Assembly (NCBI RefSeq): GCF_000026545.1
Contig: NC_011601.1
From: Escherichia coli O127:H6 str. E2348/69
GTDB taxonomy: Bacteria; Pseudomonadota; Gammaproteobacteria; Enterobacterales; Enterobacteriaceae
Reading direction: 5' to 3' (one strand)
DNA: 64,000 nucleotides
Positions 18,201 to 21,200 of the stretch are shown here, piece after piece (within the stretch, counting starts at the first letter, position 1; the number at the start of each line of letters is the position of its first letter). The position numbers were made by a program.

Positions 18201-21200
18201 GGTCCTCGGCATTGATAACCTGGTCTTTATTGCCATCCTCGCCGAAAAACTACCGCCGAAGCAGCGCGACCGCGCACGGGTTACCGGGCTGCTGCTGGCG
18301 ATGTTAATGCGCCTGTTACTGCTGGCGTCAATCTCCTGGCTGGTCACCCTGACTCAACCGCTGTTCAGCTTCCGCTCGTTTACCTTTAGCGCCCGCGACT
18401 TAATCATGCTGTTTGGTGGTTTCTTCCTGTTGTTCAAAGCCACGATGGAGCTGAACGAACGGCTGGAAGGGAAAGACAGCAATAATCCCACACAACGCAA
18501 AGGTGCGAAGTTCTGGGGCGTGGTGACGCAAATTGTGGTACTGGACGCCATCTTCTCACTCGACTCAGTGATTACCGCCGTCGGGATGGTCGACCATTTA
18601 CTGGTCATGATGGCCGCCGTGGTTATCGCTATCAGCCTGATGTTGATGGCCAGCAAGCCGTTAACGCAATTTGTTAATAGTCACCCGACCATCGTTATTC
18701 TCTGCTTAAGCTTCCTGTTGATGATTGGCTTTAGCCTGGTGGCAGAAGGTTTCGGCTTCGTCATTCCGAAAGGCTACCTGTACGCTGCCATTGGTTTCTC
18801 GGTGATGATCGAGGCGCTCAATCAGTTGGCTATCTTTAACCGGCGACGTTTTCTTTCCGCTAACCAGACGCTGCGCCAGCGGACTACCGAAGCGGTAATG
18901 CGCCTGCTTAGCGGGCAAAAAGAAGATGCGGAACTGGACGCCGAAACCGCGTCCATGCTGGTGGATCATGGTAACCAGCAGATCTTTAATCCGCAGGAAC
19001 GGCGGATGATTGAGCGGGTACTTAATCTTAACCAGCGTACCGTCAGCAGCATTATGACGTCGCGCCACGATATTGAGCATATCGATCTCAACGCGCCGGA
19101 AGAAGAAATCCGCCAGTTGCTGGAGCGAAATCAGCATACGCGGCTGGTGGTTACCGACGGTGATGACGCAGAAGATTTGCTCGGTGTTGTTCACGTAATC
19201 GACCTGCTACAACAGTCACTGCGCGGCGAACCGCTCAACCTGCGGGTGTTGATTCGCCAACCGCTGGTGTTCCCGGAAACCTTGCCGTTGTTACCTGCCC
19301 TCGAGCAGTTCCGTAATGCCCGCACACACTTTGCTTTTGTGGTGGATGAGTTTGGTTCAGTGGAAGGGATTGTGACATTAAGTGACGTCACTGAAACCAT
19401 TGCCGGTAACTTACCGAACGAAGTGGAAGAGATCGACGCCCGCCATGATATTCAGAAGAATGCGGACGGTTCCTGGACGGCGAATGGTCATATGCCGCTG
19501 GAGGATCTGGTGCAATATGTGCCGCTGCCGCTGGATGAAAAACGTGAATATCACACCATTGCCGGGCTGTTGATGGAGTATTTGCAGCGTATTCCAAAAC
19601 CTGGCGAAGAAGTTCAGGTGGGGGATTATTTGCTTAAAACGTTGCAGGTGGAAAGCCATCGCGTGCAGAAGGTGCAGATTATTCCACTGCGTAAAGATGG
19701 CGAGATGGAGTACGAGGTGTGATGGTATCGGCCATTTTACCCAATGCTGCGTAACGCCTTATAACTTCAGCAATGAAGCGTTGTCTGTGGTAAACGGACA
19801 TCACAGCGGGGGTGTGGGTCCGGCTGTAAATCGCCGAATCGTTTCCTGTAGGCCGGGGCAGCCCACATGGATGTGGGCTGAGGGCGCGTCCATATATGTT
19901 ACCTCGCGCCCGTACCCGATAGCCGAAAGGAATAAGATGAGGGAACCGTGCCAGCGGCGATTTACCGCCGGGAGCCCGGGTTGCCAGGGTGGTGGCGATT
20001 GAGCCCCCCTGGCACGTTCACCGGCTTGAGCGTTCCATAGTAGCGAGGAACATCAAGTGAACGGAACAGCCTTCGATCTTACATATTCAGAATATAATGA
20101 TGCCGCCACGAACGCCTGATGCGACGCTTTACGCGTCTTATCAGGCCTACAGGACTGGTCACCTGGTAACCTACATCTTCTCCAGCAACTTCTTCACATC
20201 CTTGCCATTGCGGGAATCTTTATTCCGCTCGGCCCAGTCATTCAGGCGACGTTTCGCTTCGTCCTGTAGATGTTTGCGCAGCAGCTGGTCCACTTGCAGG
20301 CTGTAATTGAGTTGCTGCCAGTTGCCATAAACCCGCAGCGGTACTGGCGTTTCTTTCAGGAAATCAATCAGTTTACTTTCCCCGTTCCAGCCACCCACGA
20401 CCCGAATATCAAACTGGGTATCGCAGGTTTGATCTGCCAGATTCAACATGCCTTCCCCTGTCAGCGCCAGCACAGGCGATTGACCTTGCATGTCGTTTAA
20501 CGTCACGACGCCATCCTTCAACGTCAAATCGGTGGTAAAGCGGTCAAGCCGCGTCACGTTATCAAAGTTTTCAGCGGCCTTCACATCACCGCCATTACGC
20601 TCTACCGCTTGCTGAATCATCTGCTGGAAGTTCATCCCTTCCATGCGCGTGTCGGTCATTTCGACATGTGCCTGTCCTTGCCAGTTGTGGCGGAATGCGT
20701 CGGCATCTATGTCAGCACCGGAGAAATCACCAGCCAGTGACATTTTTCCGGTCAACGAAATCGGATAGTTAAACGCCTTCAGAATGGTACCAATCTCAAC
20801 GTTTTCCAGCCGTGGCTGGAAGTTTATCCGCGGATTTATTGATGTCGCGTCCAGCGTGCCCGGCAGTGAAACCTGTCCACCGTTAAGTTTGCCCTGCAGT
20901 TGAGTAATTTCCAGCAAACCCGACTTGTTGGTCATTTGCGTGGCAACATCTGTAAAATTCATTCCGCGCCAGCGCACGTTACTGGCCTGCAACAAAATAT
21001 CAGCCGTAAAGCCTTGCAGTCCCTGATAGGCCGGTTCATCAATACGCGAAGAAATGACCGGGCGCGGCAACGTTGATTGGCTCTGCCCCTGCTGCGCGGC
21101 ACCGTTTTCACCATTCGCGGTTTCATTAAGCGGGATGAGGTTGTCAAGATTCAGTTGCGGGAATTGCAGTCTCAGCTGCCATTCCGGTTTCTCTGTCAGC

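What the first reader, a model, noticed from the sequence alone, without database searches (positions are those of the whole stretch)
19723..20113. GC-rich structured non-coding stretch between yegH and asmA with a perfect 10-bp inverted repeat
About 390 bp with no convincing ORF and a composition unlike typical AT-rich intergenic DNA contain cagcccacat-gg-atgtgggctg (19859..19880) and other GC-rich repeats. It could be a decayed gene or mobile-element relic, a protein-binding palindrome, or a small structured RNA.
Basis: seen in the sequence. Interest (0 to 1): 0.35.

Follow-up and report, generated by a model that had tools for sequence, protein, structure and literature searches.

The report
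Decayed copy of TwoAYGGAY-like repeat RNA
The GC-rich stretch between yegH and asmA is one slightly damaged copy of a roughly 270-base structured repeat scattered through the intergenic DNA of E. coli and its relatives, whose two "GGA" hairpins resemble docking sites for the global regulator CsrA, though that binding has never been tested.

Summary
Window 19723-20113 is the non-coding yegH-asmA spacer of E. coli E2348/69, and the perfect 10-bp inverted repeat sits at 19859-19880.

It is not a decayed gene and not an ordinary REP/BIME array; only 20112-20150 is a REP. The body (about 19803-20069, + strand) is one copy of a dispersed repeat. I found it in ten enterobacterial genera at 1-13 copies per genome, always intergenic and mostly at gene 3' ends.

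Ninety-five copies share a multi-helix fold with strong covariation: 95.7% of cells paired, and 39 of 70 pairs show compensatory changes. G-U pairs place the fold on the + strand.

The 5' half is two adjacent hairpins with CA-N-GGA-Y-G loops inside a long closing stem. In intact E. coli copies it aligns end to end with Rfam TwoAYGGAY (RF01731, the same clan as CsrB), but at 28-37 bits it stays below the threshold of 43. TwoAYGGAY is a published but untested candidate CsrA binder. In this strain alone hairpin 2 has lost its GGA loop.

In K-12, published Term-seq places RNA 3' ends just past hairpin 3 on both strands. CsrA CLIP-seq shows no peak over the K-12 copies.

Verdict: a real feature and a new, extended member of a known motif class. 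Interest is moderate.

The parts
18139..19722 (+). yegH (TerC-family) coding sequence. Its stop codon is 19720-19722, and the repeat lies directly downstream in the sense orientation.
   Evidence: RefSeq annotation of E2348/69 mapped onto the window; ORF list.
19744..19802 (+). 5' leader of the repeat. It holds a degenerate REP-like remnant (ATGCTGCGTAACGCCTTATAAC, 19744-19765) and a small hairpin CTTCA-GCAA-TGAAG (19765-19778). This leader is weakly conserved among copies.
   Evidence: Read from the sequence. Leader similarity to the inverted BKQWHE copy and to the Enterobacter leader hairpin.
19803..20069 (+). Conserved core of the dispersed structured repeat (about 267 nt). In this copy 68 of the 70 consensus base pairs are intact.
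   Evidence: Conservation profile; alignment A4 of 95 copies; covariation counts; per-copy pair count and helix coordinates.
19817..19976 (+). TwoAYGGAY-like 5' domain. Stacked closing helices are P1 19817-24/19967-76, P2 19826-33/19958-65, P3 19834-40/19936-42, P4 19843-46/19929-32 and P5 19851-57/19915-24. They enclose hairpins 1 and 2, with a side hairpin P6 at 19946-49/19954-57.
   Evidence: Helix coordinates. Full-length alignment of Rfam RF01731 to the same domain in the ST131 copy at this locus (L150 122-265, equivalent to window about 19824-19964) and in five other E. coli copies.
19859..19880 (+). Its loop is CAUGGAUG (19866-19873) with GGA at 19869-19871. The loop sequence is invariant while the stem covaries (5 of 7 pairs show changes on both sides).
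   Evidence: Copies not selected by the search pattern keep a GGA loop in 25 of 27 cases.
19882..19911 (+). Hairpin 2, degenerate in this strain. The loop reads CAUAUAUG with a 3-nt deletion, where 94 of 95 family members have CA(N)GGAYG. The stem base GGGCGCG/CGCGCCC is retained.
   Evidence: window is the only exception; at the same locus ST131 has UUACAGGGAUGUUAC and O103 has UUACAGGACGUUAC.
19927..19936 (+). Conserved purine-rich internal loop AAGGAAUAAG. AUAAG is nearly invariant across the family. It contains a further A-N-GGA match.
   Evidence: Invariant columns in A4; ANGGA count 4.1 per copy against 1.6 expected.
19983..20013 (+). Hairpin 3, an 11-bp GC-rich stem in which 9 of 11 pairs show compensatory change. 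In K-12, RNA 3' ends map 5-6 nt beyond it on both strands, equivalent to window about 20019 (+) and about 19978 (-).
   Evidence: Term-seq 3' ends at 2139607 (+) and 2139566 (-) in Adams et al. 2021, Supplementary file 1.
20015..20063 (+). Hairpin 4. The covarying closing stem is CGUUCAC/GUGAACG in this subfamily and CGCUCC/GGAGCG in another, and the interior is variable. It is followed by the conserved GGAAC.
20070..20111 (+). 3' trailer, weakly conserved (…CCUUCGAUCUUACAUAUUC…), running up to the REP.
20112..20150 (.). A single REP (Z-type palindrome GCCTGATGCGACGC-TTTAC-GCGTCTTATCAGGC, followed by CTAC). This is the only ordinary REP in the spacer. In strain GN02350 it is all that lies between yegH and asmA.
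   Evidence: Inverted repeat I5; weak naRNA4/REP match; 'empty' allele.
20171..22024 (-). asmA coding sequence, convergent with yegH. Its read-through transcript crosses the repeat in antisense.
   Evidence: Rho termination region at 2139476 (-) and the 3' end at 2139566 (-) in K-12.

Best explanation
Shown. The stretch is one copy of an Enterobacteriaceae-wide, non-autonomous intergenic repeat with a core of about 267 nt (19803-20069). Its + strand adopts a conserved fold supported by covariation.

- The 5' domain (19817-19976) is a long closing stem around a junction bearing two adjacent hairpins with CA-N-GGA-Y-G loops. This is the architecture of the Rfam TwoAYGGAY motif, which Rfam places in the CsrB clan.
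- The 3' domain is two GC-rich hairpins.
- Copies differ in number and position between strains and genera, and the yegH-asmA spacer itself carries several alternative alleles.

Shown in K-12, inferred here. The element has no promoter or intrinsic terminator of its own. It is transcribed by read-through of the convergent genes, in sense as the yegH 3' UTR and in antisense as the asmA 3' UTR. Hairpin 3 fixes stable RNA 3' ends on both strands, much as REP hairpins do.

Inferred. On the sense transcript the two GGA hairpins, about 28 nt apart, form a dual docking site for one CsrA dimer. Intact copies would therefore act as small portable CsrA-binding modules, working in cis or by titrating CsrA.

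It is a partly decayed copy that could offer at most single-site binding.
For: - **Family and spread.** About 80%-identical paralogues lie at yohP-dusC, efeU-putP, proX-ygaY, lysO-aqpZ and alx-sstT. A pattern scan returned 120 loci in ten enterobacterial genera, nearly all confirmed by nhmmer.
- **Structure.** 95.7% of cells are paired against about 40% when partners are slid; 39 of 70 pairs change on both sides; no shuffle in 500 reached the observed values. G-U/U-G cells number 199 against 35 A-C/C-A, which places the fold on the + strand.
- **TwoAYGGAY relation.** RF01731 aligns over its full length (model positions 1-168) to six E. coli copies at 28-37 bits. CsrB is in the same clan, CL00106.
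- **GGA loops.** Hairpin 2 has CA(N)GGAYG in 94 of 95 copies, and hairpin 2 was not part of the search pattern. Hairpin 1 keeps a GGA loop in 25 of 27 copies not selected by the pattern.
- **Match to CsrA sites.** The loops fit the CsrA SELEX consensus RUACARGGAUGU and the CsrB repeat CAGGA(U/A/C)G, and the spacing falls inside the 10-63 nt dual-site range (PMC7652899). TwoAYGGAY was independently predicted to bind CsrA (PMC4333381).
- **Transcription.** Term-seq finds 3' ends on both strands 5-6 nt past hairpin 3, plus a Rho termination region, in the K-12 copy (PMC7815308). No promoter or terminator is predicted in the window copy.
- **Mobility.** Copy number ranges from 1 to 10 among E. coli strains. 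Enterobacter copies are 95-100% identical within a genome. The yegH-asmA spacer has empty, full, truncated and inverted alleles.
Against: - No CsrA CLIP-seq peak covers either strand of the intact K-12 copies in Potts et al. 2017 (search strings verified in K-12). That experiment used growing cells, in which yohP is poorly expressed.
- E. coli copies miss Rfam's gathering score, and the Klebsiella, Citrobacter and Enterobacter copies tested gave no TwoAYGGAY hit.
- Hairpin 1 has a 9-10 bp GC-rich stem, whereas SELEX ligands mostly had four or fewer pairs.
- Orientation relative to neighbouring genes is only weakly biased: 16 sense against 11 antisense between co-directional genes. The K-12 lysO-aqpZ copy is antisense to both neighbours. 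This fits a selfish element better than a dedicated 3'-UTR device.
- There are no expression data for E2348/69 itself.
- The Term-seq evidence comes from the 5'-truncated K-12 copy.
Confidence: 0.55

Rival explanations
1. The element is a purely selfish mobile/repeat element. The conserved fold is needed in single-stranded DNA (or in an RNA intermediate) for recognition by a trans-acting enzyme such as an HUH/Y1 transposase of the RAYT or IS200/IS605 type. Any RNA-level effects are by-products.
For: - Copy number is variable and the element is polymorphic by insertion, inversion and deletion.
- Enterobacter copies are 95-100% identical within a genome.
- Genus-specific composite forms exist: boxC-flanked units in Enterobacter and head-to-head pairs in Citrobacter.
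- The element is often adjacent to REPs.
- Its orientation relative to genes is inconsistent, which fits the 'mobile/repeat sequence candidate' category of PMC11109978.
- G-T pairs are also tolerated in single-stranded DNA.
Against: - The core has no terminal inverted repeats and no target-site duplication at its ends.
- No recurrent neighbouring transposase or reverse-transcriptase gene appears in 120 loci.
- The few complete genomes examined show no replication-strand bias (coordinates).
- The invariant loops match a known RNA-binding-protein site rather than any known transposase site.
Confidence: 0.3
2. The element is an independent small-RNA gene with its own promoter and terminator, acting in trans as a CsrA sponge like CsrB and CsrC.
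For: It has twin GGA hairpins and belongs by resemblance to the clan of the sponge sRNAs. TwoAYGGAY was proposed to be a candidate CsrA-binding sRNA.
Against: - No sigma-70 promoter or intrinsic terminator is predicted in or beside the window copy.
- It has only 2-4 GGA sites, whereas CsrB has about 18 repeated CAGGA(U/A/C)G elements.
- No CLIP peak is found over the K-12 copies.
- The 3' ends seen in K-12 are explained by read-through from yegH and asmA.
Confidence: 0.08
3. The stretch is an ordinary REP/BIME array or other simple palindromic spacer with no family-specific structure.
For: One REP lies at 20112-20150 and a REP-like remnant at 19744-19765. At proX-ygaY, K-12 carries a BIME where another strain carries this repeat.
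Against: The 267-nt core has no REP sequence. It forms 13 helices with covariation and belongs to its own family of about 80%-identical copies.
Confidence: 0.02
4. The stretch is a remnant of a decayed protein-coding gene.
For: A 101-aa ORF (19697-20002) is present.
Against: - No Pfam match for any ORF in the region.
- Indels of 1-3 nt occur between copies and between strains.
- The substitution pattern is paired-stem covariation.
Confidence: 0.01

Closest known systems
TwoAYGGAY RNA motif (Rfam RF01731; Weinberg et al. 2010, PMC2864571)
   Same: - Two adjacent hairpins with A-Y-GGA-Y terminal loops, enclosed by a long closing stem.
- Multi-copy within genomes: several copies in Psychromonas NC_008709 appear in the original alignment.
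- Found in gamma-proteobacteria.
- Not consistently upstream of genes.
- The Rfam model aligns over its full length to intact E. coli copies.
   Different: - Scores of 28-37 bits fall below the gathering score of 43, and the window copy gives no hit at all.
- Loops are often A-G-GGA-Y rather than A-Y-GGA-Y.
- The enterobacterial element carries an extra 3' domain of about 100 nt (hairpins 3 and 4) and a leader.
- It forms genus-specific composites with REP, with boxC, or as inverted pairs.
CsrB/CsrC and RsmX/Y/Z sponge sRNAs (Rfam clan CL00106)
   Same: GGA motifs are presented in hairpin loops that match CAGGA(U/A/C)G or RUACARGGAUGU. Both are in the same Rfam clan as TwoAYGGAY.
   Different: - Only two canonical sites, against about 18 repeated CAGGA(U/A/C)G elements in CsrB.
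- No promoter or terminator of its own.
- Dispersed in many copies and variable between strains.
- No CLIP-seq support.
REP/BIME elements
   Same: Intergenic and concentrated at gene 3' ends and between convergent genes. Stable hairpins mark RNA 3' ends. They occupy the same 'slots' as this repeat.
   Different: REPs are imperfect palindromes of about 35-40 nt (my own knowledge). This is a 267-nt multi-helix fold with a defined strand and invariant loops.
boxC / TMECO (PIT) triplex motifs (PMC4666352)
   Same: In Enterobacter the repeat is flanked on both sides by boxC-type motifs and propagates as a composite unit. In K-12 a boxC pair occupies the alx-sstT site that holds this repeat in strain XJ55.
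   Different: No boxC motif flanks any of the 14 Escherichia, 21 Citrobacter or 7 Klebsiella copies tested. The core itself has no boxC sequence.
'Mobile/repeat sequence candidates' of structured-motif surveys (PMC11109978)
   Same: Multiple copies per genome, inconsistent orientation relative to neighbouring genes, and covariation-supported structure that may matter as RNA or as DNA.
   Different: No nearby transposase, integrase or nuclease gene was found.

Membership tests
TwoAYGGAY RNA (RF01731) | Two terminal loops carrying AYGGAY on adjacent hairpins, tested across the repeat family | tested here: met
   Hairpin 1 reads CA[U/G]GGAUG in all 95 aligned copies, though this was partly imposed by the search pattern. 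In 27 copies not selected by the pattern it has a GGA loop in 25. Hairpin 2 reads CA(N)GGAYG in 94 of 95 copies and was not part of the pattern.
TwoAYGGAY RNA (RF01731) | Two AYGGAY loops, tested in the window copy itself | tested here: not met
   Hairpin 1 is intact (AUGGAU, 19867-19872). The hairpin 2 loop reads CAUAUAUG with a 3-nt deletion and no GGA.
TwoAYGGAY RNA (RF01731) | Large closing P1 stem around the two hairpins (Weinberg 2010, Additional file 1: 'often very large, e.g. 24 base pairs') | tested here: met
   Stacked helices P1-P5 give 29 pairs in the consensus, all present in the window copy.
TwoAYGGAY RNA (RF01731) | Score at or above Rfam's gathering threshold (43 bits) | tested here: not met
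   The window copy gives no hit at E<=10. Intact E. coli copies score 28.2-36.6 bits over model positions 1-168. The Enterobacter, Klebsiella and Citrobacter copies tested gave no hit.
Csr/Rsm sponge sRNAs (CsrB, CsrC) | Many GGA hairpins (CsrB has about 18 repeated CAGGA(U/A/C)G elements), plus an own promoter and terminator | tested here: not met
   Two canonical sites plus 1-2 further ANGGA matches per copy. No promoter or terminator is predicted.
Csr/Rsm sponge sRNAs (CsrB, CsrC) | Physical binding of CsrA | tested here: inconclusive
   Sequence, structure and spacing fit the published consensus. However, no CLIP-seq peak covers the K-12 copies in Potts 2017 Supplementary Data 1. Binding itself cannot be measured with these tools.
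REP/BIME | Imperfect palindrome of about 35-40 nt, GCC(G/T)GATG…, singly or in inverted clusters (feature recalled from my own knowledge) | tested here: not met
   Met only by 20112-20150. The 267-nt core contains no REP.
boxC / TMECO | CCCTCNCCC-N3-6-GGGNGAGGG-N3-GGGNGAGGG (PMC4666352) | tested here: not met
   A regular-expression scan of the flanks found 0 of 14 Escherichia copies, including the window copy, against 21 of 29 Enterobacter copies on the right side.
MITE | Terminal inverted repeats and target-site duplication | tested here: inconclusive
   The ends of the core are not inverted repeats, and no duplication is visible in filled-versus-empty comparisons. Those sites are replacements rather than clean insertions. 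Enterobacter composites end in inverted boxC-like motifs.
RSA repeat of E. coli K-12 | 150/151 bp, six copies in K-12, two forward and four complement (PMC5172473) | tested here: inconclusive
   K-12 has about four copies of this repeat, three forward and one complement, of unequal length. This does not fit RSA, but no RSA sequence was available for comparison.

The most novel reading that the evidence does not exclude
Enterobacteriaceae carry an undescribed, extended branch of the TwoAYGGAY class. It would be a mobile RNA cassette of about 270-330 nt that installs a dual CsrA-docking site, together with a bidirectional hairpin that forms RNA 3' ends, next to whatever genes it lands beside. 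This would rewire CsrA control and mRNA 3'-end stability strain by strain. E. coli K-12 holds two intact copies (lysO-aqpZ and yohP-dusC), and E2348/69 holds a natural hairpin-2 knock-out. The untested TwoAYGGAY-CsrA hypothesis (motif described in 2010, CsrA binding predicted in 2015) therefore becomes directly testable in the model organism.
Probability: 0.3. Interest if true: 0.75.

Novelty: new member of a known kind. Interest (0 to 1): 0.5.

Why it matters
The TwoAYGGAY motif was described in 2010, mainly from gut metagenomes, and was predicted in 2015 to bind CsrA. It has never been tested.

This work shows that a clear structural relative is present in E. coli (including K-12), Klebsiella, Enterobacter and Citrobacter, but scores below Rfam's threshold and so goes unannotated. 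That gives the hypothesis a tractable experimental system, complete with natural mutant alleles.

It also accounts for a class of GC-rich "junk" spacers at enterobacterial gene ends. These spacers vary between strains and, at least at yegH-asmA in K-12, determine where the mRNAs of two convergent genes end.

If CsrA binding is real, differences in copy number and position would be a source of strain-specific post-transcriptional variation. If it is not, the element remains a well-defined new family of structured selfish repeats.

Tried and rejected
- **Rfam on the window copy.** At E<=10 only the REP gave a weak naRNA4 hit. The TwoAYGGAY link appeared only when intact paralogues were scanned.
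- **Phage and plasmid origin.** There are no phage hits. The 'plasmid' hits are mislabelled chromosomes. The seven viral-contig pattern matches are few, several lie at contig ends, and I did not examine them.
- **Associated protein gene.** Clustering the ORFs that flank the 120 loci found only diverse housekeeping neighbours and spurious ORFs inside the element.
- **Classical MITE features.** Filled/empty comparisons showed no terminal inverted repeats or target duplications. The boxC-like inverted ends are specific to Enterobacter.
- **Replication-strand bias.** None is apparent in K-12, E. cloacae or E. hormaechei, judged by hand from the coordinates.
- **Identity with the historical 'RSA' repeat.** Copy number, orientation and length do not fit, but no RSA sequence could be obtained. 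MG1655 and W3110 records in this collection carry no repeat annotation.
- **Literature search.** Searching by sequence string and by gene names found no earlier description of this element. Bachellier et al. 1999 and Rudd 1999, which might name it, are not in the library.
- **CsrA CLIP-seq support.** None was found.
- **Term-seq at the other K-12 copies.** No 3' ends were found there.
- **Decayed gene.** Rejected.
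Full report
**Locus and observation.** The window matches E. coli E2348/69 at 100%. The finding spans the spacer between the convergent genes yegH (+, stop codon 19720-19722) and asmA (-, end 20171). The perfect inverted repeat CAGCCCACAT-GG-ATGTGGGCTG lies at 19859-19880. Only 4 of 1000 shuffles of the region contain an equally long perfect inverted repeat, and only six such loci exist in the 64-kb window. GC content is 0.56 for the region and 0.61 for the core, against 0.52 for the window. The single long ORF has no Pfam match and is frame-broken in other strains. The + strand folds at -129 kcal/mol, z = -4.4.

**It is a repeat, not a unique spacer.** BLAST against 5,426 complete E. coli genomes found the full element at this locus in 1,424 genomes. 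It also found matches of about 80% identity at other loci, with a median of 3 places per genome and up to 10. The paralogues lie between yohP-dusC, efeU-putP, proX-ygaY, lysO-aqpZ and alx-sstT and align over about 270 nt. Related copies occur in Klebsiella (11 places in one chromosome), Citrobacter and K. aerogenes.

These came from Escherichia, Citrobacter, Enterobacter, Lelliottia, Kluyvera, Silvania, Klebsiella, Pseudocitrobacter, Trabulsiella and Atlantibacter. nhmmer confirmed homology for all but about two chance matches. There are no phage matches, and no recurrent neighbouring protein gene appears.

**Conserved structure.** In an alignment of 95 copies (A4) the RNAalifold consensus has 70 pairs in 13 helices.
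- 95.7% of cells form standard pairs, against 38-44% when partners are slid by 1-3 columns.
- 39 pairs and 715 cells show changes on both sides, against 203 ± 11 cells in shuffles.
- No shuffle in 500 reached the observed values.
- G-U/U-G cells outnumber A-C/C-A cells 199 to 35, so the structured strand is the window's + strand.

The window copy keeps 68 of the 70 pairs. The architecture is a long stacked stem (P1-P5) closing a junction with two adjacent hairpins (hp1, hp2) and a side hairpin. Two 3' hairpins (hp3, hp4) follow. Window coordinates are given under 'parts'.

*Caveat.* My scan pattern fixed the hp1 loop and its flanks, so hp1 invariance in A4 is partly by construction. Three unbiased checks apply.
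- hp2 was not in the pattern.
- The ten BLAST-derived copies in alignment A3 were found by similarity, not by the pattern.
- So were 27 additional copies that nhmmer found next to pattern hits.

**What the hairpins look like.** hp2 presents CA-(N)-GGA-Y-G in 94 of 95 copies. The 27 unselected copies have a GGA loop in hp1 in 25 cases. These loops match three published descriptions in the review PMC7652899: the CsrA SELEX consensus RUACARGGAUGU, the CsrB repeat CAGGA(U/A/C)G, and the ANGGAN hexaloop seen in RsmE-RNA structures. The two GGA triplets are about 28 nt apart, inside the 10-63 nt range for bridging by one CsrA dimer.

**Link to a known motif.** Rfam found nothing in the window copy. 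Intact E. coli copies, however, gave full-length (model 1-168 of 168) but sub-threshold hits to RF01731 TwoAYGGAY. The scores were 36.6, 31.5, 30.6, 30.6, 28.4 and 28.2 bits against a gathering score of 43. One of these is the ST131 copy at this same locus. RF01731 is in clan CL00106, the clan of CsrB.

Weinberg et al. 2010 described TwoAYGGAY as two terminal AYGGAY loops closed by an often very large P1. They reported it in human gut metagenomes, Clostridia and gamma-proteobacteria. Their alignment shows several copies in one Psychromonas genome. Gardner and Eldai 2015 predicted that it binds CsrA, without experimental validation.

The enterobacterial repeat therefore shares the defining architecture but fails the Rfam threshold. 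It also carries an extra 3' domain. Klebsiella, Citrobacter and Enterobacter copies gave no Rfam hit. I file it as a divergent, extended relative rather than a confirmed member.

**State of this particular copy.** At the same locus and in the same orientation, ST131 has hp2 UUACAGGGAUGUUAC and O103 has UUACAGGACGUUAC. E2348/69 instead has CAUAUAUG with a 3-nt deletion, while the rest of the element is about 99% identical. It is the only one of 95 copies lacking the hp2 GGA. This explains why Rfam saw nothing here.

**Locus history.** The yegH-asmA spacer is highly polymorphic.
- The full element in + orientation (E2348/69, ST131, O103).
- A 175-nt 5' deletion between the direct repeats TACCCAAT and TACCCGAT (K-12).
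- Another internal deletion (W444).
- The element inverted and bracketed by two inverted REPs (BKQWHE; also L057 and L124).
- A bare single REP (GN02350).
- A relE/HTH toxin-antitoxin pair in its place (O157 Sakai).

Elsewhere, K-12 has a BIME at proX-ygaY and a boxC pair at alx-sstT where other strains have this repeat. The K-12 efeU-putP copy is internally deleted.

**Genus-level behaviour.** Enterobacter copies are 95-100% identical within a genome. They are embedded in a larger unit flanked by boxC/TMECO-type motifs. In Citrobacter and several other genera two diverged copies sit head to head. E. coli copies are singletons with 69-89% mutual identity. The element sits at gene 3' ends: the upstream gene is co-oriented in 57 of 75 cases, the downstream gene is convergent in 50 of 72, and only 2 copies lie between divergent genes. 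Between co-directional genes the sense bias is weak, 16 to 11. This is the behaviour of a non-autonomous, selfish or exchangeable repeat. Its means of spread is unknown.

**Transcription.** No promoter-like or terminator-like site lies in the element. Term-seq in MG1655 (Adams et al. 2021, PMC7815308) lists 3' ends in the truncated K-12 copy.
- 2139607 (+), found in all three growth conditions.
- 2139566 (-), found in two growth conditions with high read scores.
- Each lies 5-6 nt beyond hp3 on its own strand.

The same study lists a Rho termination region at 2139476 (-). These map to window positions of about 20019, 19978 and 19713. Both strands are therefore transcribed by read-through of yegH and asmA, and hp3 marks stable 3' ends, as REP hairpins do. 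No such ends were listed at the other K-12 copies.

**Evidence against the CsrA idea.** The CsrA CLIP-seq peak list of Potts et al. 2017 contains no peak whose sequence overlaps either strand of the intact K-12 copies. It also names none of the neighbouring genes (search strings verified). That experiment used growing cells, and yohP is a stationary-phase gene (PMC12719787), so the negative result is not decisive. The hp1 stem is much more stable than typical SELEX ligands.

**Verdict.** The feature is real, and it is neither a decayed gene nor a plain REP array. It is a slightly decayed copy of an Enterobacteriaceae-wide structured repeat. The 5' domain of that repeat is a TwoAYGGAY-like twin-GGA-hairpin module, which makes it a candidate CsrA binder. 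Its 3' hairpins mark mRNA 3' ends, as shown in K-12. The mechanism of spread and the proposed CsrA binding remain inferences.

Noticed in passing
window 24065-25673 and 34641-36249: Two direct copies, about 1.6 kb each and about 98% identical, of an IS4/Tn5-like insertion sequence. Each encodes a 457-aa transposase with the Pfam domains Tnp_DNA_bind, DDE_Tnp_1 and Dimer_Tnp_Tn5. The first copy splits the diguanylate cyclase gene dgcE into a MASE1 fragment (23678-24154) and the remainder (25647-28553). The two copies bracket about 9 kb, like a composite transposon.
   Followed up: partly
window 19882-19911 (hairpin 2 of the repeat): All differences from other strains at this locus cluster in one loop: a 3-nt deletion plus three substitutions that turn CAGGGAUG into the self-complementary CAUAUAUG. 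The rest of the element is about 99% identical. This looks like a single template-switch (quasi-palindrome) event rather than gradual decay.
   Followed up: partly
L138 (E. coli O157:H7 Sakai, yegH-asmA spacer), locus positions 475-1093: Sakai and related strains carry a relE-type toxin gene and an HTH antitoxin gene in the spacer in place of the repeat. The same intergenic slot therefore holds at least six alternative contents across E. coli.
   Followed up: partly
L139 (strain BKQWHE); L057 and L124: At the same locus the repeat occurs in the opposite orientation. In BKQWHE it is bracketed by two REPs in inverted orientation, as if it were the long 'linker' of a BIME. This hints at REP-mediated inversion or insertion.
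   Followed up: partly
L013 1155-1412 (-) with 1475-1760 (+), and about 26 other loci (L031, L034, L037, L044, L045, L060, L061, L097, L100, L113, L117, L120, L121, L133, L134 and others): In Citrobacter, Silvania, Kluyvera, Atlantibacter and others, two diverged copies of the repeat sit head to head about 60-90 nt apart and fill the whole spacer between convergent genes.
   Followed up: partly
L019, L062-L065, L090-L093, L105-L111 (Enterobacter): Enterobacter copies are 95-100% identical within a genome. They are embedded in a unit of about 550-640 bp whose two ends are inverted boxC/TMECO-like motifs, giving a MITE-like composite. This suggests boxC motifs may be ends of a larger element.
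   Followed up: partly
NC_000913.3 2139476 (-), equivalent to window about 19713: Published data list a Rho-dependent termination region antisense to the last codons of yegH. The asmA transcript therefore reads through the whole spacer and into yegH before Rho stops it (PMC7815308 Supplementary file 2).
   Followed up: partly
L046, L047, L053, L066 (MAGs labelled Desulfacinum, Bacillota, 'Proteobacteria', Sporobacter): These metagenome-assembled genomes contain contigs carrying typical enterobacterial copies of the repeat (nhmmer E-values from 1e-41 to 1e-87). The contigs are probably Enterobacteriaceae contamination of the bins.
   Followed up: no
L010 4855-4998 (K-12 putP-efeU) and L005 (ETEC6334): The K-12 copy at putP-efeU has an internal deletion of about 125 nt that removes both GGA hairpins. 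The ETEC6334 copy is full length but lacks 11 nt in hairpin 3. Different strains are thus losing different parts of the same copy.
   Followed up: no
yegH (window 18139-19722) and alx (L008 935-1900): Two of the six E. coli insertion sites lie immediately downstream of TerC-family genes, yegH and alx. With so few sites this may well be coincidence.
   Followed up: no
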